From a virus: a stretch of 64,000 bases of DNA. Below the pieces are notes generated by a model. It worked only from the letters and a program-made list of their open reading frames with translations, made no database searches and was not told the origin of the DNA. How positions within the stretch are numbered: position 1 is the first letter of the stretch; every line of letters starts with the position of its first letter. The stretch is taken from positions 51,904-115,903 of IMG/VR virus record IMGVR_UViG_3300030104_005320; one strand, 5' to 3'. Position numbers and translations under genes: made by a program. Positions 31,066 to 56,508 of the stretch are shown piece by piece.

Positions 31066-32099
31066 AAATACTGATTTCTAGTGATGGCCTACATGCACAC
31101 TTTTACCAAAGGTCAGCTTGGATAAATGCTTTTGAAGCGTGCGGCATACAGACTTATTTTTGGGACTGCAAACAAGTTCCTGCATTCGATGTTTTCGACG
31201 CTTTCGAACCGGATTTGTTTTTAGGACAGTCTTACAACCTAACTCCCGATTTAATAAAGTGTATATACGAAAGACCGCATCTCAAAGTGGGCCTCCGTTC
31301 AGGAGACTGGGGAGATCAAGAAAAAGAAGTAGATAAAACCAAATACAATATACTATATTGCTCTGAACAAGAAAAGCAGATTTTAAAAAAGCTAAAAGAA
31401 GAGACTGGACAGCCAGAGTTTGTTCACATTCATTACAACGATGAAGAAATCCAAAGAACACACAATCATTTTGAAACTATAGGGATTAAGCCAGTGTCGA
31501 TTATGATGTGTGCGGACACGACGATATATAACGATGCGGAGCCACAAGAAGATCTGAGGTGCGACATAGGATTTGTTGGCGGGTATTGGCCATATAAAGG
31601 TCAAGTTATAAATGAATATCTTTTTCCTATGCTTGATTCATTTAAGTACAAGGTTAAAATATTTGGCAACAGTCCTTGGCCAGCAAACCAATACTGCGGA
31701 GTGATCGATGACGACCAATTAAAAGATTTATTTGTATCGGCTAAAATATGTCCAAATTTAAGTGAGCCACATGCACAAAAATTTGGTATTGATGTAAACG
31801 AAAGAATATTTAAAATACTCTGCTCTGGCGGATTCTGTATATCTGATTATGTTAAATCTTATGAGATGTTTGGAGACGGGGTTGTCCTAGCGAAAACTCC
31901 AGAAGATTTTAGAGATAAAATAAAATACTACCTAGAAAACCATAATGAGCGTGTTATTATTAGCAAAAGAGGGCAACAATACGTAAGACAAAACCACACA
32001 GGATTTCACAGAGTTTCTAAGCTTCTAAAATCCTTTGGATATGAAGATCTGTCTAATAACATTATTGAAAAATACAAGGAATTGATTAATGAGAACTAA
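31062..32099 (+). CDS. CgeB-like (Glyco_trans_1_2) glycosyltransferase
   Basis: DIGFVGG, SAKICPN, VNERIFKIL..GGFCISD, HT..HR. Confidence 0.8.
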   Translation: MKILISSDGLHAHFYQRSAWINAFEACGIQTYFWDCKQVPAFDVFDAFEPDLFLGQSYNLTPDLIKCIYERPHLKVGLRSGDWGDQEKEVDKTKYNILYCSEQEKQILKKLKEETGQPEFVHIHYNDEEIQRTHNHFETIGIKPVSIMMCADTTIYNDAEPQEDLRCDIGFVGGYWPYKGQVINEYLFPMLDSFKYKVKIFGNSPWPANQYCGVIDDDQLKDLFVSAKICPNLSEPHAQKFGIDVNERIFKILCSGGFCISDYVKSYEMFGDGVVLAKTPEDFRDKIKYYLENHNERVIISKRGQQYVRQNHTGFHRVSKLLKSFGYEDLSNNIIEKYKELINEN

Positions 32100-33057
32100 A
32101 GTTTTGGTCACTGGTGCTAATGGTTTTTTAGGCAAAGCCGTGTGTAAAAACATTAGAAACGTCAATAAGTATAAAGTGCTGCCCTTGCATGGTAAATCTG
32201 AATGGGATTTGACAAAACAAAAATATGTAGACTATGCCCTTCAACAATATGAACCCGATGTTGTTGTTCATCTGGCCGCTACGGTAGGAGGCATAGGTGC
32301 AAATAAAGAAAATCCCGGCCTATTTATGTATGATAATTTGTGTATGGGTATGAATCTGATAGAATCCTGTAGAAAATATGGCAAGTTAAAAAAGTTTGTC
32401 ATGGTTGGAACCGTATGTGCTTATCCAAAATTTACCCCAGTTCCATTTAAAGAGTCGGATCTTTGGAACGGCTACCCCGAAGAAACTAATGCACCTTATG
32501 GTATTGCTAAAAAGGCTCTTATGGAACTACTGATAGCCTATAAGTCGCAATACAATTTCAATGCTGTTAATTTAATACCAGTAAATATGTATGGACCTAA
32601 CGATAACTTCAATCCAGAAATAAGCCATGTCATACCGGCCTTGATTTTAAAAATAGATAGAGCTATGCATGTGGGCAAAAAAGAAATAGAGCTATGGGGA
32701 ACGGGAGAAGCTAGTAGAGAATTTTTGTATGTTGACGATTGTGCGGAGGCGATTACCAAGTCTATAGAGGCGGAAGTTGATCCAAGCCCCATAAACATAG
32801 GAACAGGAAAAGAAATCAAAATAAAAGATTTAATTACCAGACTTGCAAAACTCATGGGGTATGCAGGGGACATAAAATTTAATTCTGATCTTCCCGATGG
32901 CCAGCCAAGAAGATGTTTAGACACTAAAAAAGCAACTGAAGAACTTGGATTTACTGCAAAGACAAGCCTTCATGAAGGATTAAAAAATACCGTAAGTTGG
33001 TACTACAATAACAAGGAACAGTATAAATTCAATGATTACTTCGATTATATTCAGTAA
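32089..33057 (+). CDS. fcl: GDP-L-fucose synthase
   Basis: TGANGFLG, HLAATVGGIGAN, GTVCAYP, YGIAKK, PVNMYGPNDNF, SHVIPAL, WGTGEASREFLYVDD, PDGQPRR. Confidence 0.93.
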   Translation: MRTKVLVTGANGFLGKAVCKNIRNVNKYKVLPLHGKSEWDLTKQKYVDYALQQYEPDVVVHLAATVGGIGANKENPGLFMYDNLCMGMNLIESCRKYGKLKKFVMVGTVCAYPKFTPVPFKESDLWNGYPEETNAPYGIAKKALMELLIAYKSQYNFNAVNLIPVNMYGPNDNFNPEISHVIPALILKIDRAMHVGKKEIELWGTGEASREFLYVDDCAEAITKSIEAEVDPSPINIGTGKEIKIKDLITRLAKLMGYAGDIKFNSDLPDGQPRRCLDTKKATEELGFTAKTSLHEGLKNTVSWYYNNKEQYKFNDYFDYIQ

Positions 33058-39693: not shown

Positions 39694-40840
39694 CCTACTA
39701 ATACCAATGGCCGGAAAGGCCCAGAGATTTGCCGACAAGGGCTATAAGATGCCCAAGCCATTAATAATGGCAAAGAACAAGCACGTCATAGACTGGGCCA
39801 TGGACTCAATCGAAACAAAAGACTGTAATATAATTTTCCAAGTTAGGCTTGACCATATAAATAACTTTTCTATCGACAAGATACTTAAGAAAAAATTCGG
39901 AAATGATATTAGTATTGTGGTAGTTGACCACGACACAGAAGGCTCTGTCTGCACTTGTATGTTGGCTAGAGACCTGATAGATAATGATTTGCCATTAATA
40001 ATCTATACTCCAGATGTATATTTTGGCCCAAAATTCAACCCCAATGATATATCGGAAGAATTAGATGGCTTTCTGTTAACGTTTAAAGCGAACAGCCCCG
40101 CTCATAGTTATGTAGAGCTAAACGAAGAAGGATATGCGATTAAGACCGCTGAGAAGCAGGTTCTTAGTTCCAATGCCGCCGTTGGAGTTTACTACTACAA
40201 GACAGGATCGCTGTTTGTTAAGCACGCAGAAGAAATGATAGCGGCTAATATAAAAACGAAGAACGAATTTTACATTTGTCCCATGTTTAATACTATAATT
40301 AGAGATGGCGGCAAAGTGGGAATAAAAACAGTAGACAAGATGCACGTTCTAGGAACTCCGGGAGAGCTTGAGTTTTTTGTTAGAAATGTTTCTTGGACAT
40401 TTGGAGAGCGTCCTATAGCCTTGTGCGGAGATCATTCTGGATGGGATAAAAAAGAAGCGACAAAATTAATACTTGAAAATATGGGAATTGATTATATCGA
40501 TTTTGGGTGCTACGTACAAAAGGACTCAGACTATCCTGATTTTGTAACACAGGCGGCACAAGCCATACGAGATCAAATATGCGATTTTGGATTAGGCTTT
40601 TGTAGAACGGGACAGGGAGTCAATATGTGTGCAAATCATCACGGCTTAAGGTCTGCACTTGTGTTTAATGATTATACTGCCGAAATGGCGGTACGTCACA
40701 ACTGTGCCAATTTCTTTGGAATGTCCTCAAAGTATATCACCACAGAAGATATTAAGGTTATTATTAACACGATTAGAAGCCATTCATTTGATGGCGGTAG
40801 ACATATGAGTAGGATGTCGGAGGTTCTAAATGATAGTTGA
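39680..40840 (+). CDS. nucleotidyltransferase (BcbE-like) fused to RpiB/LacAB sugar-phosphate isomerase
   Basis: LIPMAGKAQRF..GYKMPKPLI, EFYICP, LGTP; then IALCGDHSG, DYPD, FCRTGQG, AVRHNCAN, FDGGRH. Confidence 0.88.
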   Translation: MKKYNLLIPMAGKAQRFADKGYKMPKPLIMAKNKHVIDWAMDSIETKDCNIIFQVRLDHINNFSIDKILKKKFGNDISIVVVDHDTEGSVCTCMLARDLIDNDLPLIIYTPDVYFGPKFNPNDISEELDGFLLTFKANSPAHSYVELNEEGYAIKTAEKQVLSSNAAVGVYYYKTGSLFVKHAEEMIAANIKTKNEFYICPMFNTIIRDGGKVGIKTVDKMHVLGTPGELEFFVRNVSWTFGERPIALCGDHSGWDKKEATKLILENMGIDYIDFGCYVQKDSDYPDFVTQAAQAIRDQICDFGLGFCRTGQGVNMCANHHGLRSALVFNDYTAEMAVRHNCANFFGMSSKYITTEDIKVIINTIRSHSFDGGRHMSRMSEVLNDS

Positions 40841-41402
40841 TCACGACAGCAAGTTTATATTTGTAGCTGTCGCTAAAACCGCGTCTACATCGATACACAG
40901 AAGCTTTGGATACACTCAAGACCCAGAGCCTAAAATATATCACATGCACTTAAAAGATATAATCAAAACAAATCCAGAAGCAAAGGATTATTTTAAATTT
41001 GGCTTTGTTAGAAATCCATATGATAGACTTGTTAGTGCTTATCATGATTTCAAATATTCCAAACATCACCCATGGGCCTCTGCGATTTATCAATATTCTA
41101 CATTTAAAGATTTTGCATTAAACTTGCATAATAGTCCTTGTAGGGATTTTATTCATTTAAGGCCGCAGTTCGAATATCTGGAACTCAACGGCGAATTGGG
41201 CGTTGATTTCGTTGGAAGGTTTGAACATCTGAACGATGACTTCAGGTTAGTACAGGAACTAATAAATATTGAAGATAGGTCTTTAGGTAGAGATAGATTA
41301 TCTTCTCATGAGGAATATACAACATACTACGACACAGAAACGAAAAATACTGTATATGAACTTTACAGAAAAGACTTTGAGGTATTTGGATATGAGAAAT
41401 AA
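40830..41402 (+). CDS. sulfotransferase (Sulfotransfer_2 family)
   Basis: FIFVAVAKTASTS (5'-PSB), FVRNPYDRLVSAY (3'-PB), H.RPQ, GRFE, Y.KDF..FGY. Confidence 0.88.
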   Translation: MIVDHDSKFIFVAVAKTASTSIHRSFGYTQDPEPKIYHMHLKDIIKTNPEAKDYFKFGFVRNPYDRLVSAYHDFKYSKHHPWASAIYQYSTFKDFALNLHNSPCRDFIHLRPQFEYLELNGELGVDFVGRFEHLNDDFRLVQELINIEDRSLGRDRLSSHEEYTTYYDTETKNTVYELYRKDFEVFGYEK

Positions 41403-42120
41403 ATTACTTCAACAGTGTGAAGCATCATATAAAAGATATGAAAAGAGCGTCAGAGATGTCAGCCCCCGCAATGGGTGTATGTTAAAGGCTGAAAACTTTT
41501 GTTTCTGCTGTATGTGTGAATTGTATTCAGTAGATGTGATTATAGAAACCGGTGTGTTTTTTGGAGCCTCGACAGAAATGTTCGCAAGATATTTTGAAGG
41601 ATCTGAAACCGAAATACATGCTATAGATATATCTTGGCCAGATGGCCTGCAAGAAAAATTACAATCATACAAAAATATTAAAGAAACATATTGTGCAGAT
41701 GGCACACAAAAGATTTTAGAGTTAATAACAAAATTTAAAGATAAAAAAATAGCGGTTTTTATAGACGGGCCAAAAGGCGAACAGCAACTATCTTTGGCTA
41801 AAAAAATAATAAATTCTGTAGAGTTTGTGGCACTTCATGACGTAGGTAGAGAATATTGTATGTATACAGCAGAACCACAAGTCGAAGTAGAAACGCATGA
41901 TAATTTCGTTGAGTGGGACCGGTCTATGTTTATCACAACTGAAGACTGGTTTGCCAATAAGTATTCACACATGAATATTGAACAGCTTAGATGGCTTCAG
42001 AAAAAAGACACGAGATGGGAAAAAAGAAACGATGGATACGACGAAAGTTTGTGGAATCCAATTTTAGATAAGATCACTCCTAACGGCTTTGGTCTTGGCA
42101 TAGCAATGAAAGCAACTTGA
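41392..42120 (+). CDS. putative class I SAM-dependent methyltransferase
   Basis: IIETGVFFGAST, AID, FIDGPK, LHD. Confidence 0.7.
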   Translation: MRNKLLQQCEASYKRYEKSVRDVSPRNGCMLKAENFCFCCMCELYSVDVIIETGVFFGASTEMFARYFEGSETEIHAIDISWPDGLQEKLQSYKNIKETYCADGTQKILELITKFKDKKIAVFIDGPKGEQQLSLAKKIINSVEFVALHDVGREYCMYTAEPQVEVETHDNFVEWDRSMFITTEDWFANKYSHMNIEQLRWLQKKDTRWEKRNDGYDESLWNPILDKITPNGFGLGIAMKAT

Positions 42121-42137
42121 GTTCATTAAGTGGAATC

Positions 42138-42746
42138 ATGATAATTAATCACAACAAAAGATTTATATTTGTGGCTGTAGCAAAAACTGCATGTACATCA
42201 ATACGTAGGAGTCTTGGATATACTAAAGATCCGCTACCCCTTAGATATCACATGAACTTAAAGGACATGATAAACCAAAACCCTGAAACTGAAAACTACT
42301 TTAAATTTGGTTTTGTTAGAAATCCTTACTATAGGCTGGTTAGTGCTTTTTTTAATTTTAGAAATTCAAACACACATGGATCAATACCGCCATATTACGT
42401 GCCTTTCTATGAATACAATAACTTTAGAGATTTTGTATTAGACCTAGATAAAATGGCTGAAAAAATCATACATCTAAAAACCCAATATGATTATTTAGAG
42501 TATAAGGGGGGTGTTGGCGTTGATTTTGTTGGAAGATTTGAGAATCTAAATGAAGATTTTGAAACTGTAAAATCTTTAATTGGTATAGAATCAGAGCCTC
42601 TTGGTATACACAGACAACATGTAAGCGGGCTCAATGGAGTCGCAAGAAAATCTGATAACTATATGGATGAGTATGACGAAGAAACAAAAGAAATAACTTA
42701 CCGGTTTTACAAAAAAGACTTTATGGAGTTTGGTTATGAAAAGTAA
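42138..42746 (+). CDS. sulfotransferase (paralogue of 40830-41402)
   Basis: FIFVAVAKTACTS, FVRNPYYRLVSAF, GVDFVGRFE, YKKDF..FGYEK. Confidence 0.88.
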   Translation: MIINHNKRFIFVAVAKTACTSIRRSLGYTKDPLPLRYHMNLKDMINQNPETENYFKFGFVRNPYYRLVSAFFNFRNSNTHGSIPPYYVPFYEYNNFRDFVLDLDKMAEKIIHLKTQYDYLEYKGGVGVDFVGRFENLNEDFETVKSLIGIESEPLGIHRQHVSGLNGVARKSDNYMDEYDEETKEITYRFYKKDFMEFGYEK

Positions 42747-50481: not shown

Positions 50482-50885
50482 ATGTTGAAGTTTCTAACGG
50501 CGAAATTGCCGACAAAGTTTCTATATTAATGATCAAGGCACAAAAGATACACGATCCCGATAAGATGAAAAACATAGCTGAAGAGCTTGAAGCCTTATCG
50601 GTTGCCTTTGGTCAGATAGTAGGACATCCTTCGGATGTATTCAAAAAAGATGGAATTTGGGAATTGTTTTTTTCTTTGAAAAACATAAACGAAAAACTCT
50701 GGAACATAGAAGACAAGATAAGGGAAAAAGAAAAGAACAAACAGTTTGATGCAGAGTTTATAGAGTTGGCTAGATCGGTATATATGACCAATGATAAAAG
50801 ATCTAAAATAAAAGCAGAGATAAACAAGACTTCACACTCAAGACTATTAGAAGAAAAGTCCTACAGCGACTATCTAAGCCAATAA
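50478..50885 (+). CDS. DUF6165-like protein
   Basis: VSNGEIADKVSIL.IK...INEKLWNIED.IR...FIELARSVY.TNDKR..IK..IN. Confidence 0.75.
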   Translation: MNVEVSNGEIADKVSILMIKAQKIHDPDKMKNIAEELEALSVAFGQIVGHPSDVFKKDGIWELFFSLKNINEKLWNIEDKIREKEKNKQFDAEFIELARSVYMTNDKRSKIKAEINKTSHSRLLEEKSYSDYLSQ

Positions 50886-51700
50886 TTATTTTTTACGCGA
50901 TGATTGCAGTCTTGAGATTTTACTCTAGACCAGCCAGAATCGTAAGAATCATTTAGATAGCCTTCTCCAGTCATAATTAAATCTCTTTCTGCCCAGTAGA
51001 ACTTAGGAACGTCTACTTTACACATTCTGATTAGGTGCATCCAAGATGTATCTACAGTGTGTATTTCAGAAGCGTTTTTGATGACCTTAATCCAGTCAAA
51101 AATAAGGGTATCTTTCCATGGGTAGTTTGCTGGATCTATGACAGGAAGGTCCGTAGGGGGGCTAAAATCGAAGCTGTACTTACGGCTGTCCCTTACTACG
51201 AAAGCGTATTTATTGGGCAGCTTTAGACTTTCAAAAAGATCGTTTTCTTTTTTTATATCTCTTGGTAAAAAGTAGCTTTTATATCTTTCTTCATACGGAA
51301 CCTGTTGGACAGAATAAAAAACTTTAGGCCATATTGTAGATTCTGGTAGATTTAATTTTTTAGCCTGCTCCAGCCATTGACTTTCTTTATTAAAGTAACA
51401 CCTTCTTAGTGGAGGTATATCAACGCCGGGGTTATCCTGCCTAATTTTTTTGTAAGCACTTTCTTGCCTGAGCCTTGCCTGTCTGGTGCTACTGGGGTGC
51501 GGCTTTACAAACGGAATAATTTTATCATTATCCCTATACATAAATTCAATATGCTTTAATCTAGAGTCCCAACAAACTACATAAACCCTGTCATATATCG
51601 ATGCAAAATATCTGATAGAGCCATTCATGACAATAGAATCGCCCAAGCCTGTATTGTTAGCTACTACTATCCATTTTTTCTTTAATGTCTGTCCAGCCAT
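50870..51700 (-). CDS. uncharacterised GT-B-like protein (GLGD family paralogue)
   Basis: NTGLGDSIVMNG, FMYRD, IFDW, ASEIHTVDTSW; start uncertain (51700 or 51715). Confidence 0.6.
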   Translation of the reverse strand: MAGQTLKKKWIVVANNTGLGDSIVMNGSIRYFASIYDRVYVVCWDSRLKHIEFMYRDNDKIIPFVKPHPSSTRQARLRQESAYKKIRQDNPGVDIPPLRRCYFNKESQWLEQAKKLNLPESTIWPKVFYSVQQVPYEERYKSYFLPRDIKKENDLFESLKLPNKYAFVVRDSRKYSFDFSPPTDLPVIDPANYPWKDTLIFDWIKVIKNASEIHTVDTSWMHLIRMCKVDVPKFYWAERDLIMTGEGYLNDSYDSGWSRVKSQDCNHRVKNNYWLR

Positions 51701-52442
51701 TATCATATCCATCATTAAGGTAATTTTCTCCACACGCGGGAACCGGTCTTGCATATCTATGAAAAAATCTAGGATTATCTAGCTTCATAGATTTTATTAA
51801 ATGAAACCAAGAAGTATCAACCGTGTGTATTTCTGTAGCGTTTTCTATAACAGACATCCAATCAAAAACCAAAGTCTTCAAGGGAAATGAGTCAGGGCTA
51901 ACAATCGGAAGTTTAGTGTTAAGATAAATTCTAGATTGTTTCTTAGCTCTTTTGCTCGCTACAAAAGCGTACTCCTTGGGCAATCCAAGACGTTTATACA
52001 GCTCTCTCTCACGATGCGGATCTCTTTTAAAGTAAAAACTTTCATGTCTTTGTTTGTAGTCTACGCCAACAGCTTTGTAAAAAGCTTCACACCAGCAGCT
52101 TTTTTCCACATCTAACCCTATTCTTTCTACCAGATCGGGCCAGTCACGCATGTATGGCCAGAAAAACATCCTTGCATCAAAACCCTCTTTCTCATATCTG
52201 GCTCTAATTTTTCTAATTTTCCTTTGTGCGTGCTTGCCACTGGCGGCATCTGTCTCGGCCACTATATGTATTCTTGGATCGTCTCTATACATATACTTTA
52301 CATGTTCTACTTTTTGCCCATAGGTCACGACATAAACTTGATCATAGGAATTTAACAGATATCTAGCAGCACCATTCATCATAATATGGTCTCCTAGCCC
52401 CGTGTTATGTGCAATAATGCATCTGTCTAAAACTAACTTCAT
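51657..52442 (-). CDS. uncharacterised GT-B-like protein (GLGD family paralogue)
   Basis: HNTGLGDHIMMNG, YMYRD, VFDW, ATEIHTVDTSW. Confidence 0.6.
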   Translation of the reverse strand: MKLVLDRCIIAHNTGLGDHIMMNGAARYLLNSYDQVYVVTYGQKVEHVKYMYRDDPRIHIVAETDAASGKHAQRKIRKIRARYEKEGFDARMFFWPYMRDWPDLVERIGLDVEKSCWCEAFYKAVGVDYKQRHESFYFKRDPHRERELYKRLGLPKEYAFVASKRAKKQSRIYLNTKLPIVSPDSFPLKTLVFDWMSVIENATEIHTVDTSWFHLIKSMKLDNPRFFHRYARPVPACGENYLNDGYDNGWTDIKEKMDSSS

Positions 52443-52443
52443 T

Positions 52444-54033
52444 TCAATAATCCGTATTATGGGAACAAGGAGGATTTACTTGGCCTACGTGTTCATTGTT
52501 TTTTCTAAGAGTTGGAAAATCTAACTGGATTGCACCATCTATTTTTTCATTATTTTTTATACGAGATGTTATTTCAGGATTTCTTTTTTCATAATCTCCA
52601 TATAAGATACCGTTCTCGTGGCCAACATGAGATAAAGACTCGTCCTTGTAAATCGGCCATATGAATTCAGTCAACCATTTTTGGTCAACTCCCTTGCGAT
52701 CCTCCTTGTTAAAGCTGGCTATCATTTCTACTACATTTGGAATACCGCCCTTTATGCCCCACATACCCCCAAGGATTGGTATGTCGTGCCAATAGTGGTC
52801 TCTCATGCAGTGTAAAGATTTTTTAGATTGTAGCCACTCGTTAACAGCATGAACTTCTCTCCATAAGATTACTGAATCAGCGTCCCTAAATATTACAATA
52901 TTTGAGTCTTTAGCGGCATAAAATCGCCAAAACATAGAAAGGTTATTTTCTGGTTCTCCTTTCATATATATTAAATTACAACCCATTTCTTCTAAAGAAT
53001 CGCATACATGCCTTGGAACAGAATCCCCTATGTAAAAACGCCACTCCCAATCTGGATATTTATCCCTGCCATATTTGACGCATCTAACGGCACCGTCTGT
53101 GTATAAGGTATCTGATCCATACAAGCTAAATGATATTATCTTGTTATTGCTTTTGTTGATTTTTTTATTTATTATTGTTGAAAGTGTTGGGAAAAACTGC
53201 AACTCATTTAGAATTTTTTTCTTAGCGGCCTTTATGTATGGCAACCTTCTTTCCCACTCGTTGTTTTTTATCGCAGATTTAATTAAGGACAAAGAGTGCT
53301 GCTTGTCATGAACCGTAATTGGTATATATGCTCTAGGATCTATAAACTCGTACAGATTAGGACAGCCCCAGTAAAAGCATAAACATTCAGACAATATTGC
53401 GTCTACTATCTTTTCTGTGAAATAATTTTTTTCAGCAGTATTTTCAGCAGAGTATGTGTACTTATATGGGAATAAACCTTGATCTTTTGTTCTCCATGGA
53501 AGTGGCCCCATTTCTTTACCGGCTGATGGCCAGTGCTCAGGAATCCAAACATTTGCATGACCCCTTCCCCAGACATCCATTTCTATATTTTCACATATAT
53601 GGCAAAGAAGCTCTAGTCTCTGATTATGTCCGGGCAGCCATCTCTCGCCAGACATTACTGTAGAAAGTTTTTTGGTTTTTTTAAGGCTTACTTTTCCCTG
53701 TGTGAGATCAGAGTAGGTTGGAGATATCCACCACTCAACGGGATTTTTATAATGATAAAATAATATCTTGTCTCTATGTGCCTCGACATTTGAAAAAATG
53801 CCGGGAAATTGAGATATGCTATATTTCGGCTCCATCTGTATAACTATAGTTCTTTTGGGTTCTATGTTTTCTTTATCCCAATCTACCCAATTAATAACCA
53901 CAGAGAAATCTTCGTCCTCATCTACTAGCTGTATATCTTTCCAGCCCCCTTTTTCATCGGCCATTTTTTTAAAGTACCCATTAAGATAAGGCTCCTCCTT
54001 GTAATAATTGCCAACTATTTTTACTCTATACAT
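52444..54033 (-). CDS. GT10 alpha-1,3/4-fucosyltransferase-like domain fused to ISFSLYG/MRDH GT-like domain
   Basis: QMEP, YKYTYSAEN....YFTEKIVDA......YWG (GT10 motif); then ISFSLYG, FWRF, RDADS, MRDHYWH, ILGGMWG. Confidence 0.8.
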   Translation of the reverse strand: MYRVKIVGNYYKEEPYLNGYFKKMADEKGGWKDIQLVDEDEDFSVVINWVDWDKENIEPKRTIVIQMEPKYSISQFPGIFSNVEAHRDKILFYHYKNPVEWWISPTYSDLTQGKVSLKKTKKLSTVMSGERWLPGHNQRLELLCHICENIEMDVWGRGHANVWIPEHWPSAGKEMGPLPWRTKDQGLFPYKYTYSAENTAEKNYFTEKIVDAILSECLCFYWGCPNLYEFIDPRAYIPITVHDKQHSLSLIKSAIKNNEWERRLPYIKAAKKKILNELQFFPTLSTIINKKINKSNNKIISFSLYGSDTLYTDGAVRCVKYGRDKYPDWEWRFYIGDSVPRHVCDSLEEMGCNLIYMKGEPENNLSMFWRFYAAKDSNIVIFRDADSVILWREVHAVNEWLQSKKSLHCMRDHYWHDIPILGGMWGIKGGIPNVVEMIASFNKEDRKGVDQKWLTEFIWPIYKDESLSHVGHENGILYGDYEKRNPEITSRIKNNEKIDGAIQLDFPTLRKNNEHVGQVNPPCSHNTDY

Positions 54034-55428
54034 TTATGTTTTAACCCTATTTATAACATAAGATTTATTTTCAATCCTTTCAACAAGTGTATAGTTTAAA
54101 TTTTTCAGGCCATCAGTACTGAAATCATATCGAGAGTGTAACTTTTCTACATTCAAACTGTGAGATTTTTTTGAAGCTTTATCATGATGCATAGACGCAA
54201 ATCTTCCATCTCTTCTTTTCCATGAGATACCTAATGAATCAATTCTTTTTTTCATGTCGTCATCTTCTGCTCCCCATCCCCAATACTCATTTGAGTAACC
54301 ATTTAAAAGATTAAAATGAAACTTATCAAAAAGTGTGACGCCTCCAAATATACCAGCATACGGAAGCTTATAATTAAATTGAGAACAAAACGCAGAAAGG
54401 TGTGTTGGCGTACACGGAAAAGAGTAGTCACAAGACCTGCCTTCTGGAATCAAATCTATATCATGGAAACAAAAATAACAATTCTTATGTTTGTTTAAAT
54501 CGTAACCTATATTCAAAAGCTTGGCACGATTAAATTCATGGTCGTCGTATTGCTCTATAATTTGTATTTCATATTTGATATCCGGATGATAAAAATTCAT
54601 ATGGTCAGAAATACCAGAAACAAAGGACTCGACTTGATGCTCCCTGTTTCTGTAGGGAACAACTACACACATGTTATTAAACTCTTCAGTAGAAAAGTCT
54701 GAAACAAAATATTTAGACTCTGCTATATCTTGTTTTAAATATTTTATGTCAAAAAAATTATAATGATTCTGAACTTCAGGGTTAACGTGCGTGCCCCACG
54801 TTCCAAGATGAGTAGTCCTGCTAACTTCAGGCTGTAGCCATTTCATTCCATGCCATATTATGTGTGCTCTTATTGCAAAATCCCAACCCTTAGTTTTTAA
54901 ATGGTGGTCTTTCCTGTACCAATTAAATTTTAGCTGATCAAACCATCCTCTTTTGTCAAGTATAAATCCTAGTGCCGACCAGTTATATGTATCGACAACA
55001 AATTCTTGAGACTCTTTTTTAGAGTATTCACTAAAAGAATCATAGTTAAAGAGAGAAATTCCCGCATAACCCTTGTAAGAATCTCTATCTAAAGTCATAT
55101 ACCAATCTGCTATCTTAGTAATGTCTGGAGAAACCACTAGGTCTTCTTCTAGATATATATTAACATCAGAAAGCAGGACTTCATAAACATATGAAAGCAA
55201 CTTAAATGGATGGTTTTTAACTCCTTCTTTTTCTTTGGGCACAATAATCTTGTATTGTAGTCCATCCAATATTTTATTTATTGAAGATATCATATCTTCT
55301 AGCAAAGGAGTAGGCTCAACAGATAGTATTATATCCCAACCGTCAAGATCGTTTTTGACCAGAGAAGAAAGTAAATTCTCTAATAACTTTTTTCTGTTGT
55401 GAACAGTTACAGTTATTGTTTTTTTCAT
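54034..55428 (-). CDS. bifunctional glycosyltransferase: GT13/GnT-I-like domain plus GT7 beta-1,4-galactosyltransferase-like domain
   Basis: N-domain HNR, YLEEDLVVSPD, GWD, PEVSRTTHLG; C-domain VVVPYRNR, FNRAKLLNIG, FHDIDL, FGGV, NGYSNEYWGWGAEDDD. Confidence 0.8.
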   Translation of the reverse strand: MKKTITVTVHNRKKLLENLLSSLVKNDLDGWDIILSVEPTPLLEDMISSINKILDGLQYKIIVPKEKEGVKNHPFKLLSYVYEVLLSDVNIYLEEDLVVSPDITKIADWYMTLDRDSYKGYAGISLFNYDSFSEYSKKESQEFVVDTYNWSALGFILDKRGWFDQLKFNWYRKDHHLKTKGWDFAIRAHIIWHGMKWLQPEVSRTTHLGTWGTHVNPEVQNHYNFFDIKYLKQDIAESKYFVSDFSTEEFNNMCVVVPYRNREHQVESFVSGISDHMNFYHPDIKYEIQIIEQYDDHEFNRAKLLNIGYDLNKHKNCYFCFHDIDLIPEGRSCDYSFPCTPTHLSAFCSQFNYKLPYAGIFGGVTLFDKFHFNLLNGYSNEYWGWGAEDDDMKKRIDSLGISWKRRDGRFASMHHDKASKKSHSLNVEKLHSRYDFSTDGLKNLNYTLVERIENKSYVINRVKT

Positions 55429-55539: not shown

Positions 55540-56508
55540 TTACAGATATTCTAATGAAAAATACAGCCCGTAGCTCTCCTTAGATCCTGTAGACAGGGGA
55601 GAAGCAGAAAGAGCTACAGACCATGTATGGTGTGTATCAACCCCAGTTCCTCCATAGTTTAGTTGTTTACTTGAAGAGCCGTCGCCAAACTGATGAGCAG
55701 TAGATCCGAAGAAGGTTTGCTGATTACCAGTAGTTTTTAGATACTGGGTCCATTTAGGCCAGACCATTCCGGTTCCACTAACAACTTGATTGTTTTGCAG
55801 ACCTTTTTGCCCAGAGCCCGGAGAGTCGAGAAGAGGGACGATAATTCCAGTTCCTCCTACTGTATCATAAGATCCAGCAACTCCCGCAGTGGCAAGTCTG
55901 GAATCTCCATTGACAACAGAAGAGTTATCGTATCCATTTGTAAAAGTAACAGCAGAGCTATTAACAAAGGAATTAGTAACTAAAGCGTTTGGCCAAGGCT
56001 CTCCCCACCATAAAGCGTCTCCACTTCCTACGGCATTTGAAGTGACAGATGTAGAACCCTGATTGTTAAATGTGCTGCCATTATGATTGACAATTTCTGC
56101 AACTTTAGTGTTCACGCCACTAGCTGGAAAATTTACATTATTTCTATCAAAAATTCTAAGTTGACAATTTTGAGCTTTAACAGCAGATGTATGGCCAAAT
56201 TCGATACCTAAAGTTCCATGCATGGTCTTAACTCCAGAAAGACCAATATTGGTATCGCTACCGGCAAAAGCACCTCCAAGAGTACATCGACCACTAGGGA
56301 ACACGGAAGTAACGTATTTTAAGTTATTTGTAGCATCAGAATTGGTGCTGCCATCAGAGTTTGCAATCGTTGTTACATCTTGATATGAGCCTATTTGAAC
56401 CGATGCTCCAGCGGTAGCACCATAAAAAGCCAAACCAGAACCCGAAAACGTATCAATAGCAGGCGTGCCGTTAGCCTGTTTTAGTAATTGGAACCTTATT
56501 TCTGCCAT
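55540..56508 (-). CDS. putative virion structural protein (Gly/Ser/Thr-rich)
   Basis: AAGGAG RBS; composition; C-terminal ALSASPLS..K..YGLYFSLEYL. Confidence 0.65.
   Translation of the reverse strand: MAEIRFQLLKQANGTPAIDTFSGSGLAFYGATAGASVQIGSYQDVTTIANSDGSTNSDATNNLKYVTSVFPSGRCTLGGAFAGSDTNIGLSGVKTMHGTLGIEFGHTSAVKAQNCQLRIFDRNNVNFPASGVNTKVAEIVNHNGSTFNNQGSTSVTSNAVGSGDALWWGEPWPNALVTNSFVNSSAVTFTNGYDNSSVVNGDSRLATAGVAGSYDTVGGTGIIVPLLDSPGSGQKGLQNNQVVSGTGMVWPKWTQYLKTTGNQQTFFGSTAHQFGDGSSSKQLNYGGTGVDTHHTWSVALSASPLSTGSKESYGLYFSLEYL

What the first reader, a model, noticed from the sequence alone, without database searches (positions are those of the whole stretch)
52444..55428. Adjacent GT13-like/GT7 fusion and GT10 genes: potential LacNAc/Lewis-type glycan assembly line
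Seen: one ORF joins an N-terminal GT-A domain (YLEEDLVVSPD, GWD, PEVSRTTHLG) to a GT7 domain (PYRNR, FNRAKLLNIG, FHDIDL, WGWGAEDDD); the next ORF has the GT10 motif. Known: the first motif set resembles GT13 GlcNAc-transferases (MGAT1/POMGnT1), GT7 enzymes are beta-1,4-Gal/GalNAc transferases, and GT10 enzymes are alpha-1,3/4-fucosyltransferases. In animals these activities in sequence give Gal-beta1,4(Fuc-alpha1,3)GlcNAc. Inference: with fcl (GDP-Fuc), glmS/GNA1 (GlcNAc) and sulfotransferases in the same window, the phage could make a eukaryote-like, possibly sulfated, Lewis-x or LacdiNAc-type epitope. Donor specificity cannot be read from motifs alone.
Basis: partly seen in the sequence, partly recalled or inferred. 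Interest (0 to 1): 0.85.

Follow-up and report, generated by a model that had tools for sequence, protein, structure and literature searches.

The report
Phage four-domain fucosyl-LacdiNAc-type glycosyltransferase pair
Two abutting genes of an uncultured marine phage carry four sugar-adding enzyme domains of mostly animal-type families, and they probably build a fucose-bearing GalNAc/Gal-GlcNAc cap on a larger phage-made glycan.

Summary
On the minus strand, ORF 54034-55428 (464 aa) fuses a GT13/GT16-like GlcNAc-transferase-type domain to a clear GT7 domain. ORF 52444-54033 (529 aa) starts with a GT10 fucosyltransferase-type domain.

The N-terminal domain does not group with generic GT2. Its family profile hits POMGnT1 at E 1.6e-22, GnT-II at 7.7e-13 and GnT-I at 2.3e-12.

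The GT7 donor-determining position (bovine Tyr289) is Ile360. That is the invertebrate beta4-GalNAc-transferase state, so LacdiNAc is more likely than LacNAc.

Sequential action is inferred, with independent support:
- The gene pair stays together in related marine contigs.
- Each neighbouring domain pair (GT13-like/GT7, GT7/GT10, GT10/GTAx) is found fused in both orders elsewhere.
- The phage encodes Gmd, Fcl and GlmS.

No membrane anchor, flippase or polymerase was found on the contig, so assembly is probably cytoplasmic. The acceptor and target (virion protein or host envelope) are unknown.

Neither GT7 nor GT10 was found in 50,697 GenBank phage records. Unchecked scan notes describe similar GT7/GT10 islands in other phage genomes. 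I rate it a new variant of virus-encoded multi-domain glycosyltransferases.

The parts
54034..55428 (-). P0002, 464 aa: GT13/GT16-like domain fused to a GT7 domain. No membrane anchor.
   Evidence: Three full-length homologues at 54-62% identity keep the fusion. No hydrophobic segment was found.
54694..55428 (-). N-terminal GT-A domain (residues 1-245), GT13/GT16-like. It carries an NR motif (R12), the E94-E95-D96 DXD-type motif, W182-D183 and P200..R204..H207.G209.
   Evidence: Exhaustive phmmer found 406 representatives, mostly stand-alone proteins of about 230-250 aa. The profile matches POMGnT1 at E 1.6e-22, GnT-II at 7.7e-13 and GnT-I at 2.3e-12. Pfam MGAT2 matches 34 of 60 members and GNT-I 16 of 60. 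In the model, GnT-I gives Z 16.6 and POMGnT1 Z 15.7.
54037..54693 (-). GT7 domain (residues 246-464). It has D323-I-D325, Ile360 at the Tyr289 donor determinant (codon 54349-54351), W385, E388-D389 and H415.
   Evidence: Pfam GT7N and GT7C. Beta4GalT1 chains match at E 5e-32, with a residue-level alignment. Foldseek gives E 1e-20 and VIA gives Z 26.7. Ile360 is invariant in the fusion clade.
52444..54033 (-). P0001, 529 aa: GT10-type GT-B domain fused to an unnamed GT-A-like domain (GTAx). It starts at the base after the P0002 stop codon.
   Evidence: The full-length homologue P0122 is 66% identical and comes from a Tara 0.1-0.22 um fraction.
53158..54033 (-). GT10 domain (residues 1-292). Q-M-E68-P holds the candidate catalytic base. 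It also has S128..R139, E197-N198 and T206-E207-K208.
   Evidence: PF00852 scores above its cut-off. H. pylori FucT aligns over FEN...TEK. The top Foldseek hits are H. pylori FucT (E 2e-9), FUT11, FucT13 and FUT9. These residues are invariant in alignment A7.
52447..53142 (-). GTAx domain (residues about 298-529). Motifs are ISFSLYG, WRF, RDADS (DXD-like) and MRDH..H...LGGMWG. The family is viral, about 216 aa, and has no Pfam model.
   Evidence: 238 stand-alone homologues were found, aligned in A6. No Pfam family matched. The only PDB profile hit is the PBCV-1 A64R N-domain at E 0.074. Atlas neighbours are Uroviricota clusters.
51657..52442 (-). P0510, 261 aa, one of a pair of paralogues downstream in the same operon. 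Possibly a GT-B/GT9-like transferase, not established.
   Evidence: 38% identical to P0511. It is syntenic with the GT pair in L018 and L019. The Atlas gives only a lead to a GT9 cluster, score 0.92. PF01075 finds nothing on the contig.
50870..51754 (-). P0511, 294 aa as listed (the true start is probably further in). Paralogue of P0510.
55540..56508 (-). P0512, 322 aa, a Ser/Thr/Gly/Asn-rich protein directly upstream. It is the last gene of the tail-like block and a possible glycosylation substrate. That role is speculative.
   Evidence: Homologues at 71% identity lie next to the GT pair in L018 and L019, on the opposite strand there. It has no Pfam, PHROG or PDB match.
32089..33057 (+). GDP-L-fucose synthase (Fcl)-like gene, which supplies the donor for the GT10 domain.
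   Evidence: NF047922 at 288 bits, E 7e-86, below the equivalog cut-off. Its partner Gmd lies outside the window at G000:C1:4558-5640.
40830..42746 (+). Two Sulfotransfer_2 genes (40830-41402 and 42117-42746), which might sulfate the glycan.
   Evidence: PF03567 at E 3e-23 and 1e-23. No PDB match.

Best explanation
The two translationally coupled genes encode a soluble, four-domain glycan-extension module. Proposed order of action (inferred, no step assayed):
1. The GT13/GT16-like domain transfers beta-GlcNAc from UDP-GlcNAc to a manno-configured or similar sugar. That sugar would be laid down by the other glycosyltransferases of the phage's 25-30 kb glycan island.
2. The fused GT7 domain adds beta1,4-GalNAc to that GlcNAc. 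It may also accept Gal, because Ile-type GT7 enzymes have relaxed donor use.
3. The GT10 domain adds alpha-linked fucose, using GDP-fucose made by the phage's own Gmd and Fcl.
4. The unnamed GTAx domain adds one further sugar.
The expected product is a fucosylated LacdiNAc- or LacNAc-type cap. It is assembled in the host cytoplasm, most likely on a phage structural protein and possibly on a host envelope precursor.

Shown here: domain identities, intact catalytic motifs, conserved adjacency, repeated fusions, and encoded donor pathways. Inferred: donors, linkages, order of action, acceptor and target.
For: Catalytic motifs are intact:
- GT7 has DxD, WGWG-EDDD and the His ligand.
- GT10 has the QMEP glutamate, R139, N198 and E207-K208.
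- The GT13-like domain has NR, EED and WD.

Donor preference: Ile360 aligns with bovine Tyr289. It is invariant in the fusion clade. PMC7943597 states that Ile/Leu at this position sets GalNAc preference and that Ile-to-Tyr converts the enzyme to a GalT.

Coupling:
- There is a zero-base gap between the two genes.
- The same pair in the same order sits 1 nt and 72 nt apart in L018 and L019. The pair lies on one contig in L020 and L021.
- Fusions seen elsewhere: GT13like-GT7 x4, GT7-GT13like x4, GT7-GT10 x1, GT10-GT7 x2, GT10-GTAx x2 and GTAx-GT10 x1.
- The GT7 domain of the GT7-GT10 fusion P0008 is sister to the phage clade, support 99/94.
- Many GT10 relatives are fused to GT25, a beta4-GalT family.

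Donor supply on the contig: Fcl-like, GlmS and split HldE, and Gmd.

Cytoplasmic assembly: neither protein has a hydrophobic anchor, and the 116-kb contig holds no large polytopic membrane protein.

Precedents: chlorovirus multi-domain glycosyltransferases that glycosylate the capsid protein (PMC9614988), and mycobacteriophage virion glycosylation as cited in PMC12619734.
Against: - No enzyme activity, product or acceptor is known for any protein of these clades.
- Family-level specificities do not always carry over. GT7 also includes enzymes acting on xylose, glucosylceramide and GlcA.
- The GT13-like domain falls below the Pfam GNT-I and MGAT2 cut-offs on its own, and its structural Z-scores are only slightly above those of GT2 synthases.
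- No UDP-GlcNAc/Glc 4-epimerase is on the contig, so UDP-GalNAc or UDP-Gal must come from the host.
- Only 9 of 96 GT10 loci have a GT7 nearby, so the coupling is specific to some lineages.
- In L018 and L019 the block runs with the glycan island, not the tail genes. Its place in the 'late tail operon' here is therefore not conserved and says little about the target.
- The contig is about 75% complete, so a flippase or priming transferase could be missing.
Confidence: 0.55

Rival explanations
1. The GT13-like/GT7 fusion is a bifunctional polymerase. It would work like chondroitin or heparosan polymerases, LARGE1 or CHSY. Its two GT-A domains would alternate to build a repeating GlcNAc-Gal(NAc) backbone (poly-LacNAc, keratan-like or GAG-like), which GT10, GTAx and the island's sulfotransferases then decorate.
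For: The full-length model matches two-domain polymerases: K4CP at E 7.5e-12, plus LARGE1 and CHSY3-CHPF. Two sulfotransferase genes are in the island. Fusions occur in both domain orders. An unchecked scan note reads a GT2-GT7 fusion elsewhere as a dual-domain polymerase.
Against: The polymerase matches are only two stacked GT-A folds, with rmsd of 16-25 A. No export machinery for a polymer (ABC transporter, Wzx/Wzy or synthase-type membrane domain) is on the contig. The tight coupling to a capping fucosyltransferase fits a terminal motif better.
Confidence: 0.13
2. The four domains do not act in sequence. Each adds an unrelated branch or residue to a complex heteroglycan built by the roughly 20 transferases of the island. 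The animal-family specificities (GlcNAc, then beta4-Gal/GalNAc, then alpha3-Fuc) do not carry over to these distant viral clades.
For: Identity to characterised enzymes is low: about 30% for GT7, 14-19% for GT10 and 17-19% for GT13. Most GT10 loci lack a GT7 neighbour. GT10 domains are also fused to GT2, GT4, GT11 and GT25. In L020 and L021, two unrelated ORFs separate the pair.
Against: Independent fusions of the same three domain pairs in both orders are hard to explain without functional coupling. The pair is kept as a unit while its flanks are rearranged. The catalytic and part of the acceptor-side GT7 motifs are conserved.
Confidence: 0.2
3. The chemistry is as in the best explanation, but the target is the host cell surface (LPS core, capsule or S-layer glycan) and not the virion. 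The change could block superinfection or alter grazing or recognition.
For: Phage glycosyltransferases that change host serotype are established (cited in PMC12619734). An ADP-heptose pathway (split HldE) is encoded, and heptose is an LPS-core sugar. In relatives the block is transcribed with the metabolic island, not with the structural genes.
Against: No priming phosphoglycosyl transferase, flippase, ligase or other polytopic membrane protein is on the 116-kb contig. The island always lies next to the tail-like block and next to a conserved Ser/Thr/Gly/Asn-rich structural-looking protein. A lytic-looking phage with a large replication module gains little from seroconversion.
Confidence: 0.25
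4. The transferases hypermodify phage DNA by glycosylating hydroxymethylated bases.
For: Virus-encoded transferases can put multi-sugar glycans on DNA (Pyle et al. 2024, cited in PMC12619734).
Against: GT7, GT10 and GT13 enzymes all act on sugar acceptors. An island with about 20 transferases, sulfotransferases and methyltransferases is far larger than any known DNA-glycosylation system. No hydroxymethylase was identified here.
Confidence: 0.03

Closest known systems
Animal GT7 beta1,4-N-acetylgalactosaminyltransferases (Drosophila beta4GalNAcTA, C. elegans BRE-4, Bombyx BmGalNAcT) and beta4GalT1
   Same: The GT7 fold and motifs match: DxD, FNRAKLLN, WGWG-EDDD. Identity to beta4GalT1 is 30%, with E 5e-32 and Z 26.7. 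Ile sits at the Tyr289/Ile289 donor determinant, as in the invertebrate GalNAc-transferases.
   Different: It has no signal anchor or stem. It is fused to a second GT-A domain. It branches outside the animal clade. Part of the N-acetyl pocket differs: K429-L430 aligns where bovine has R359-F360. Its activity is untested.
GT13 (GnT-I, POMGnT1) and GT16 (GnT-II) beta1,2-GlcNAc-transferases
   Same: The family profile aligns over the whole catalytic domain, at E 1.6e-22, 2.3e-12 and 7.7e-13. The NRP, EDD/EED, WD and P-E-x-SR-x-H-x-G motifs are shared. The best structural matches are GnT-I (Z 16.6) and POMGnT1 (Z 15.7).
   Different: The domain has about 240 aa and lacks the C-terminal domain of GnT-I and the stem and lectin domains of POMGnT1. 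On its own it falls below Pfam's curated cut-offs. It belongs to a distinct, mostly viral/metagenomic family of stand-alone proteins. Acceptor and donor are untested.
GT10 alpha1,3/4-fucosyltransferases (H. pylori FucT, FUT9, plant FUT11/FucT13)
   Same: It passes the Pfam GT10 cut-off. The FEN...TEK donor motif and the Arg motif are conserved. GT10 structures are the top Foldseek hits.
   Different: Identity is only 14-19%. It is fused to an extra GT-A-like domain. It belongs to a large environmental clade that is common in giant-virus MAGs and often fused to GT25, GT7 or GT11.
Chlorovirus PBCV-1 multi-domain glycosyltransferases A064R and A111/114R
   Same: These are virus-encoded, soluble proteins with several transferase domains. 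Each builds consecutive parts of one glycan in the cytoplasm, on a structural protein (PMC9614988). GTAx has a weak profile hit to the A64R N-domain, E 0.074.
   Different: The host is a eukaryotic alga and the domain families differ. In PBCV-1 the substrate, the major capsid protein, is known. Here it is not.
H. pylori Lewis-antigen pathway (GT25 beta4-GalT plus GT10 FutA/FutB)
   Same: A prokaryote-side route to fucosylated LacNAc that combines a beta4-hexosyltransferase with a GT10 enzyme. This comparison rests on established knowledge. GT10-GT25 fusions among relatives echo it.
   Different: H. pylori uses GT25, not GT7, and builds on lipid-linked O-antigen with flippase and ligase. None of that machinery was found on this contig.

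Membership tests
CAZy GT7 / Pfam Glyco_transf_7N+7C | Significant match to both GT7 profile halves | tested here: met
   PF13733 at E 2.2e-16 and PF02709 at E 1.2e-22, both far above their cut-offs.
CAZy GT7 / Pfam Glyco_transf_7N+7C | DxD metal site, WGWG-EDDD acceptor/base loop and GT-A fold superposable on beta4GalT | tested here: met
   D323-I-D325 and W385...E388-D389 align to bovine D252-V-D254 and W314...E317-D318. Foldseek gives E 1e-20 at rmsd 2.1-2.3. VIA gives Z 26.7.
CAZy GT7 / Pfam Glyco_transf_7N+7C | Beta1,4 transfer of Gal/GalNAc to terminal GlcNAc | not testable with these tools
   This needs an enzyme assay. Sequence gives only the donor-determinant residue, Ile360.
CAZy GT10 / Pfam Glyco_transf_10 | Match to the GT10 C-terminal profile above the curated cut-off | tested here: met
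   26.6 bits against a cut-off of 23.9.
CAZy GT10 / Pfam Glyco_transf_10 | GDP-fucose-binding residues (Arg motif, Asn, Glu-Lys of the TEK motif) and an N-domain catalytic Glu | tested here: met
   E197-N198 and T206-E207-K208 align with FEN...TEK of H. pylori FucT. E68, R139, N198, E207 and K208 are invariant in A7. Assigning E68 as the base is inference.
CAZy GT10 / Pfam Glyco_transf_10 | GT-B fold closest to solved GT10 enzymes | tested here: met
   The top Foldseek hits are all GT10, E 2e-9 to 6e-7. In VIA, FUT9 (Z 14.9) is tied with generic GT-B folds.
CAZy GT13 (GnT-I/POMGnT1) or GT16 (GnT-II) | Match to Pfam GNT-I or MGAT2 above the curated cut-off | tested here: not met
   MGAT2 scores 23.2 bits for the whole protein and 26.5 bits for the domain alone, against a cut-off of 27. 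There is no GNT-I hit for this protein. Among 60 family members, 34 hit MGAT2 and 16 hit GNT-I at E<=0.01.
CAZy GT13 (GnT-I/POMGnT1) or GT16 (GnT-II) | Homology over the whole catalytic domain, with the EDD metal motif and the WD catalytic-base region | tested here: met
   The profile A2 matches POMGnT1 at E 1.6e-22 (positions 5-222), GnT-I at 2.3e-12 and GnT-II at 7.7e-13. EED96, W182-D183 and PE.SR..H.G are aligned.
CAZy GT13 (GnT-I/POMGnT1) or GT16 (GnT-II) | UDP-GlcNAc:alpha-mannoside beta1,2-GlcNAc transfer | not testable with these tools
   This needs an enzyme assay.
CAZy GT9 (heptosyltransferases), for the downstream paralogues P0510 and P0511 | Match to Pfam Glyco_transf_9 | tested here: not met
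   PF01075 finds nothing on the contig at E<=1. There is only an Atlas lead, score 0.92, to a cluster in which 57% of members carry PF01075.
Bifunctional two-GT-A glycan polymerases (K4CP, PmHS2, LARGE1, CHSY) | Two GT-A domains whose products are each other's acceptors, giving a repeating polymer | tested here: inconclusive
   Two GT-A domains are present. The structural matches to polymerases have E 1e-8 to 1e-12 but rmsd of 16-25 A. Processivity cannot be tested here.

The most novel reading that the evidence does not exclude
A tailed marine phage makes an animal-type terminal epitope, fucosylated and possibly 4-O-sulfated LacdiNAc on GlcNAc-beta-Man/heptose, and puts it on its own virion proteins. 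Everything happens in the bacterial cytoplasm. The phage uses soluble relatives of the Golgi enzyme families GT13/16, GT7 and GT10 plus Sulfotransfer_2 enzymes, and supplies its own GDP-fucose. This would be a third, independent virus-encoded protein-glycosylation system, after those of chloroviruses/mimiviruses and mycobacteriophages. It would also give a source of soluble, bacterially expressible LacdiNAc and Lewis-type synthases.
Probability: 0.2. Interest if true: 0.85.

Novelty: new variant of a known kind. Interest (0 to 1): 0.62.

Why it matters
GT7, GT10 and GT13/16 are best known as Golgi families that build the antennae of animal glycans. This work makes three points.
- A tailed phage carries all three families as soluble, anchor-free, fused and tightly coupled domains. 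It also has its own GDP-fucose route.
- The same domain pairs are fused repeatedly in environmental viruses.
- Neither GT7 nor GT10 was detectable in 50,697 deposited phage genomes, so cultured phages have not shown this.

If the predicted chemistry holds, it extends virus-encoded glycosylation to complex fucosylated HexNAc caps in bacterial viruses. It would raise the question of what such glycans do in the sea, for example shielding virions, adhesion to mucus or particles, or avoiding grazers. It could also provide easily expressed enzymes for chemoenzymatic synthesis of LacdiNAc, LDNF or Lewis-type glycans. The unnamed GTAx family and the GT13-like stand-alone family (406 representatives) have no Pfam family match above the curated cut-offs in this copy and could be described as new transferase families.

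Tried and rejected
The 86-kb contig that appears to hold both P0004 and P0123 could not be fetched. Their co-occurrence there, and on contigs of 21,957 and 3,949 bp, is inferred only from equal contig lengths.
- **Two IMG/VR scans** with the fusion protein and its alignment found nothing.
- **Megablast** of the region against GenBank phages found nothing.
- **PHROGs** gave no hit for either protein or for most neighbours.
- **GTAx** has no Pfam family. Its only PDB profile hit is marginal, E 0.074. The whole-protein fold searches were filled by the GT10 domain, so the GTAx fold was not really tested.
- **The N-domain of P0002** could not be folded alone. Residues 196-243 of the model, which include the PEVSRTTHLG motif, have pLDDT below 50.
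- **GT9 assignment** for P0510 and P0511 is not supported by Pfam or PDB.
- **Sulfotransferase and P0512** sequence searches of the PDB gave nothing.
- **No GalE-type epimerase** was found on the contig.
- **Promoter and terminator scans** around the genes were at chance level.
- **Recent capture from animals** is rejected. The fusion clade lies outside the animal clade, which has 100/96 support.
- **The 'late tail operon' argument for virion glycosylation** is rejected as evidence, because the orientation is not conserved in L018 and L019.
- **Literature searches** found no paper describing GT7, GT10 or GT13 enzymes in phages.

Full report
**Setting**

The window is the last 64 kb of a 115.9-kb IMG/VR virus contig that CheckV rates about 75% complete. 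The plus strand carries these genes:
- nucleotide metabolism genes, including RNR
- GlmS
- a dNMP kinase and a split DnaE
- from about 24.6 to 50.9 kb, a dense glycan island

The island contains several GT4 and GT2 genes, an Fcl-like epimerase/reductase, an FkbM methyltransferase and a split HldE (heptose-7-P kinase plus adenylyltransferase). It also has nucleotidyltransferases, HAD phosphatases, an RpiB fusion, two Sulfotransfer_2 genes, a WavE-like gene and DUF6165.

From 50.9 kb to the contig end the genes run on the minus strand. The last ORF has weak tape-measure PHROG hits, so this block looks like tail genes. The genes between it and the finding have no family match.

**Observation**

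Both ORFs are real, on the minus strand, and abut with no spacer: P0002 at 54034-55428 and P0001 at 52444-54033. All quoted motifs are in P0002.

For P0002, Pfam gives Glyco_transf_7N at E 2.2e-16 and 7C at E 1.2e-22 over residues 250-415. It also gives a sub-threshold MGAT2 hit over residues 71-230. For P0001, Glyco_transf_10 scores above its cut-off over residues 120-250.

**GT7 domain**

- It aligns with bovine and human beta4GalT1 at E 5e-32.
- The AlphaFold model has mean pLDDT 86.
- The model superposes on beta4GalT1 at Foldseek E 1e-20 with rmsd about 2.2 A. It superposes on beta4GalT7 at Z 26.7.
- The DxD motif (D323-I-D325) and the WGWG-EDDD loop are conserved.

In the residue alignment, the bovine segment PYVQ-Y289-FGG lies over PYAG-I360-FGG. 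The Ile is invariant in the three full-length homologues.

Among the hits fetched, most metagenomic GT7 domains have Tyr at this position (89 of the 126 aligned domains with a residue there). The named invertebrate beta4-GalNAc-transferases have Leu or Ile. PMC7943597 states that this Ile/Leu is the key donor determinant of GT7 and that Ile289Tyr converts the Drosophila enzyme to a galactosyltransferase. It also states that the Ile-type silkworm enzyme has relaxed donor use.

So the sequence favours GalNAc transfer (LacdiNAc) without excluding Gal.

A maximum-likelihood tree of 71 GT7 domains was built from hits with at least 150 aligned residues. It places the fusion clade together with P0008 (support 99/94). 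That group lies outside the animal clade (support 100/96). This argues against a recent capture from animals.

**N-terminal domain**

An exhaustive phmmer search of 1.84 billion representatives found 406 relatives. Most are stand-alone proteins of 230-250 aa.

A profile of 60 of them gave these PDB matches:

| Chain | Family | E-value | Extent |
|---|---|---|---|
| POMGnT1 | GT13 | 1.6e-22 | whole catalytic domain |
| GnT-II | GT16 | 7.7e-13 | two stretches of the catalytic domain |
| GnT-I | GT13 | 2.3e-12 | most of the catalytic domain |
| GT2 chains | GT2 | 1e-4 or worse | first 60 residues or so only |

Scanned one by one, 34 of 60 members hit Pfam MGAT2 and 16 hit GNT-I. In the model, the best structural matches for residues 1-222 are GnT-I (Z 16.6, rmsd 2.6, 180 residues) and POMGnT1 (Z 15.7). 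These are only slightly ahead of GT2 hyaluronan synthases.

The NR, E-E-D96, W182-D183 and P-E-x-S-R-x-x-H-x-G motifs align with the corresponding GnT motifs. It is still a separate family, and on its own it falls just under Pfam's curated thresholds.

**GT10 domain and the fourth domain**

P0001 residues 1-292 carry the GT10 donor motif. E197-N198 and T206-E207-K208 align to FEN...TEK of H. pylori FucT. These residues, together with E68 and R139, are invariant in close relatives.

The model has pLDDT 87. Its best Foldseek hits are H. pylori FucT (E 2e-9), Arabidopsis FUT11, mango FucT13 and human FUT9.

Residues about 298-529 ("GTAx") belong to a family of stand-alone proteins of about 216 aa, with 238 short homologues found. 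The family has conserved ISFSLWG, RDxDS and MRDHxxH...LGGMWG motifs and no Pfam model. Its only PDB profile hit is marginal, to the N-domain of chlorovirus A64R at E 0.074.

Atlas neighbours of GTAx are Uroviricota clusters and TPR-fused proteobacterial proteins. Among GenBank phages, it occurs in Synechococcus phage S-SRM01 and an Acinetobacter phage. I read it as a DxD-type GT-A transferase of unknown specificity. That is an inference.

**Do the domains work together?**

Three lines of evidence bear on this.

1. *Gene arrangement.* There is no spacer between the two genes, and there is a 1-nt gap to the next gene.

2. *Synteny.* In L018 (Tara contig CEOU01017774.1) and L019, the GT13like-GT7 ORF is followed 1 nt and 72 nt later by a GT10-GTAx ORF.
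   - The flanks are arranged differently there. The P0510/P0511-like paralogues lie upstream, and the P0512-like gene lies on the opposite strand.
   - L018 also holds an extra stand-alone GT13-like gene upstream of the fusion ORF.
   - In L020 and L021 the fusion and a GT10-only gene lie on one contig, separated by two unknown ORFs.
   - In L023, GT10 and GTAx are separate overlapping genes.

3. *Domain fusions.* A census of all fetched proteins found these:

| Fusion | Count |
|---|---|
| GT13like-GT7 | 4 |
| GT7-GT13like | 4 |
| GT7-GT10 | 1 |
| GT10-GT7 | 2 |
| GT10-GTAx | 2 |
| GTAx-GT10 | 1 |

The GT7 domain of the GT7-GT10 fusion P0008 is the sister of the phage clade. Its GT10 domain is 56% identical to that of P0001.

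Many other GT10 relatives are fused to GT25, a beta4-galactosyltransferase family, and one is fused to GT11.

These fusions link the domains in the chain GT13like-GT7-GT10-GTAx. That matches the order expected from the acceptor rules of the characterised families: GT7 acts on terminal beta-GlcNAc, and GT10 acts on the GlcNAc of LacNAc or LacdiNAc. Those rules are established knowledge and were not tested here.

The coupling is lineage-specific. Of 96 GT10 loci, 9 have a GT7 nearby, 7 have GTAx and 4 have the GT13-like domain.

**Donors and compartment**

The contig encodes these donor-pathway genes:
- an Fcl-like enzyme (NF047922 at 288 bits)
- Gmd, outside the window (TIGR01472, two stretches covering positions 1-341)
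- GlmS and the split HldE

No GalE-type 4-epimerase was found, so UDP-GalNAc or UDP-Gal would come from the host.

Neither protein has a hydrophobic anchor. The whole contig has no large polytopic membrane protein. There is therefore no sign of a priming transferase, flippase, polymerase or ligase. The caveat is that about a quarter of the genome is missing.

This points to cytoplasmic assembly on a soluble acceptor. That is how chlorovirus multi-domain transferases work (PMC9614988) and how glycosylated mycobacteriophage virions arise (cited in PMC12619734).

The Ser/Thr/Gly/Asn-rich protein P0512 is next to the pair in all three genomes and is 71% conserved. It is a candidate substrate, but the adjacency may only reflect conserved genome order.

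**Verdict**

A GlcNAc, then beta4-GalNAc/Gal, then alpha-Fuc extension module is the best reading (about 0.55). LacdiNAc is favoured over LacNAc. Acceptor, linkage and target are open.

The rivals are a bifunctional polymerase, non-sequential action, a host-envelope target and DNA modification.

Neither GT7 nor GT10 was found in 50,697 GenBank phage records. IMG/VR relatives of the GT10 domain are mostly giant-virus MAGs. Unchecked notes of this scan report similar GT7/GT10/GT11 islands in other phage genomes, so the theme recurs on other DNA.

I rate it a new variant of a known kind, virus-encoded multi-domain glycosyltransferases, of solid but not exceptional interest until an activity is measured.

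Noticed in passing
window 52447-53142 (-), and proteins P0391-P0509: GTAx is a sizeable, mostly viral family of proteins of about 216 aa. It has ISFSLWG, RDxDS and MRDHxxH..ILGGMWG motifs and no Pfam model. JGI sometimes labels members 'protein O-GlcNAc transferase'. TPR-fused forms occur in Pseudomonadota. It is a candidate new glycosyltransferase family.
   Followed up: partly
window 50870-52442 (-): Two paralogous genes, P0510 and P0511 (38% identity), lie downstream of the GT pair and are syntenic with it in L018 and L019. Their motifs NTGLGD and HTVDTSW.HL recall GT9 heptosyltransferases, and the phage encodes a split HldE. However, the Pfam GT9 model finds nothing.
   Followed up: partly
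window 55540-56508 (-): A 322-aa Ser/Thr/Gly/Asn-rich protein has no Pfam, PHROG or PDB match. It is 71% conserved and always lies beside the GT pair in related contigs, although on the other strand there. It could be the glycosylated structural protein.
   Followed up: partly
G000:C1:4558-5640 (-), outside the window: A GDP-mannose 4,6-dehydratase (Gmd) gene sits about 80 kb away from fcl on the same contig. The phage therefore encodes the whole GDP-mannose to GDP-fucose route, but it is split between two genome regions.
   Followed up: partly
proteins P0028-P0121 (hits): A very abundant marine (Tara) family of about 478 aa joins a Tyr-type GT7 domain to a Laminin_G_3-like domain. Other GT7 domains occur as tandem repeats or fused to GT2. 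GT7 is clearly widespread outside animals in environmental sequence.
   Followed up: no
L002 8001-9454; L068 6001-7451: A giant-virus MAG contig (L002) and a metagenome contig (L068) carry GT10 followed 30 bp later by GT7. This is the same pairing as in the phage, at 32-37% identity.
   Followed up: partly
L018 3829-4560: The closest relative has an extra stand-alone GT13-like gene directly upstream of the GT13like-GT7 fusion. It is about 32% identical to the fused domain, which suggests duplication within the module.
   Followed up: no
window 40830-42746 (+): Two Sulfotransfer_2 genes lie in the island. From my own knowledge, not checked here, this Pfam family includes the animal GalNAc-4-O-sulfotransferases that act on LacdiNAc. 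That would fit the predicted GalNAc-type GT7.
   Followed up: no
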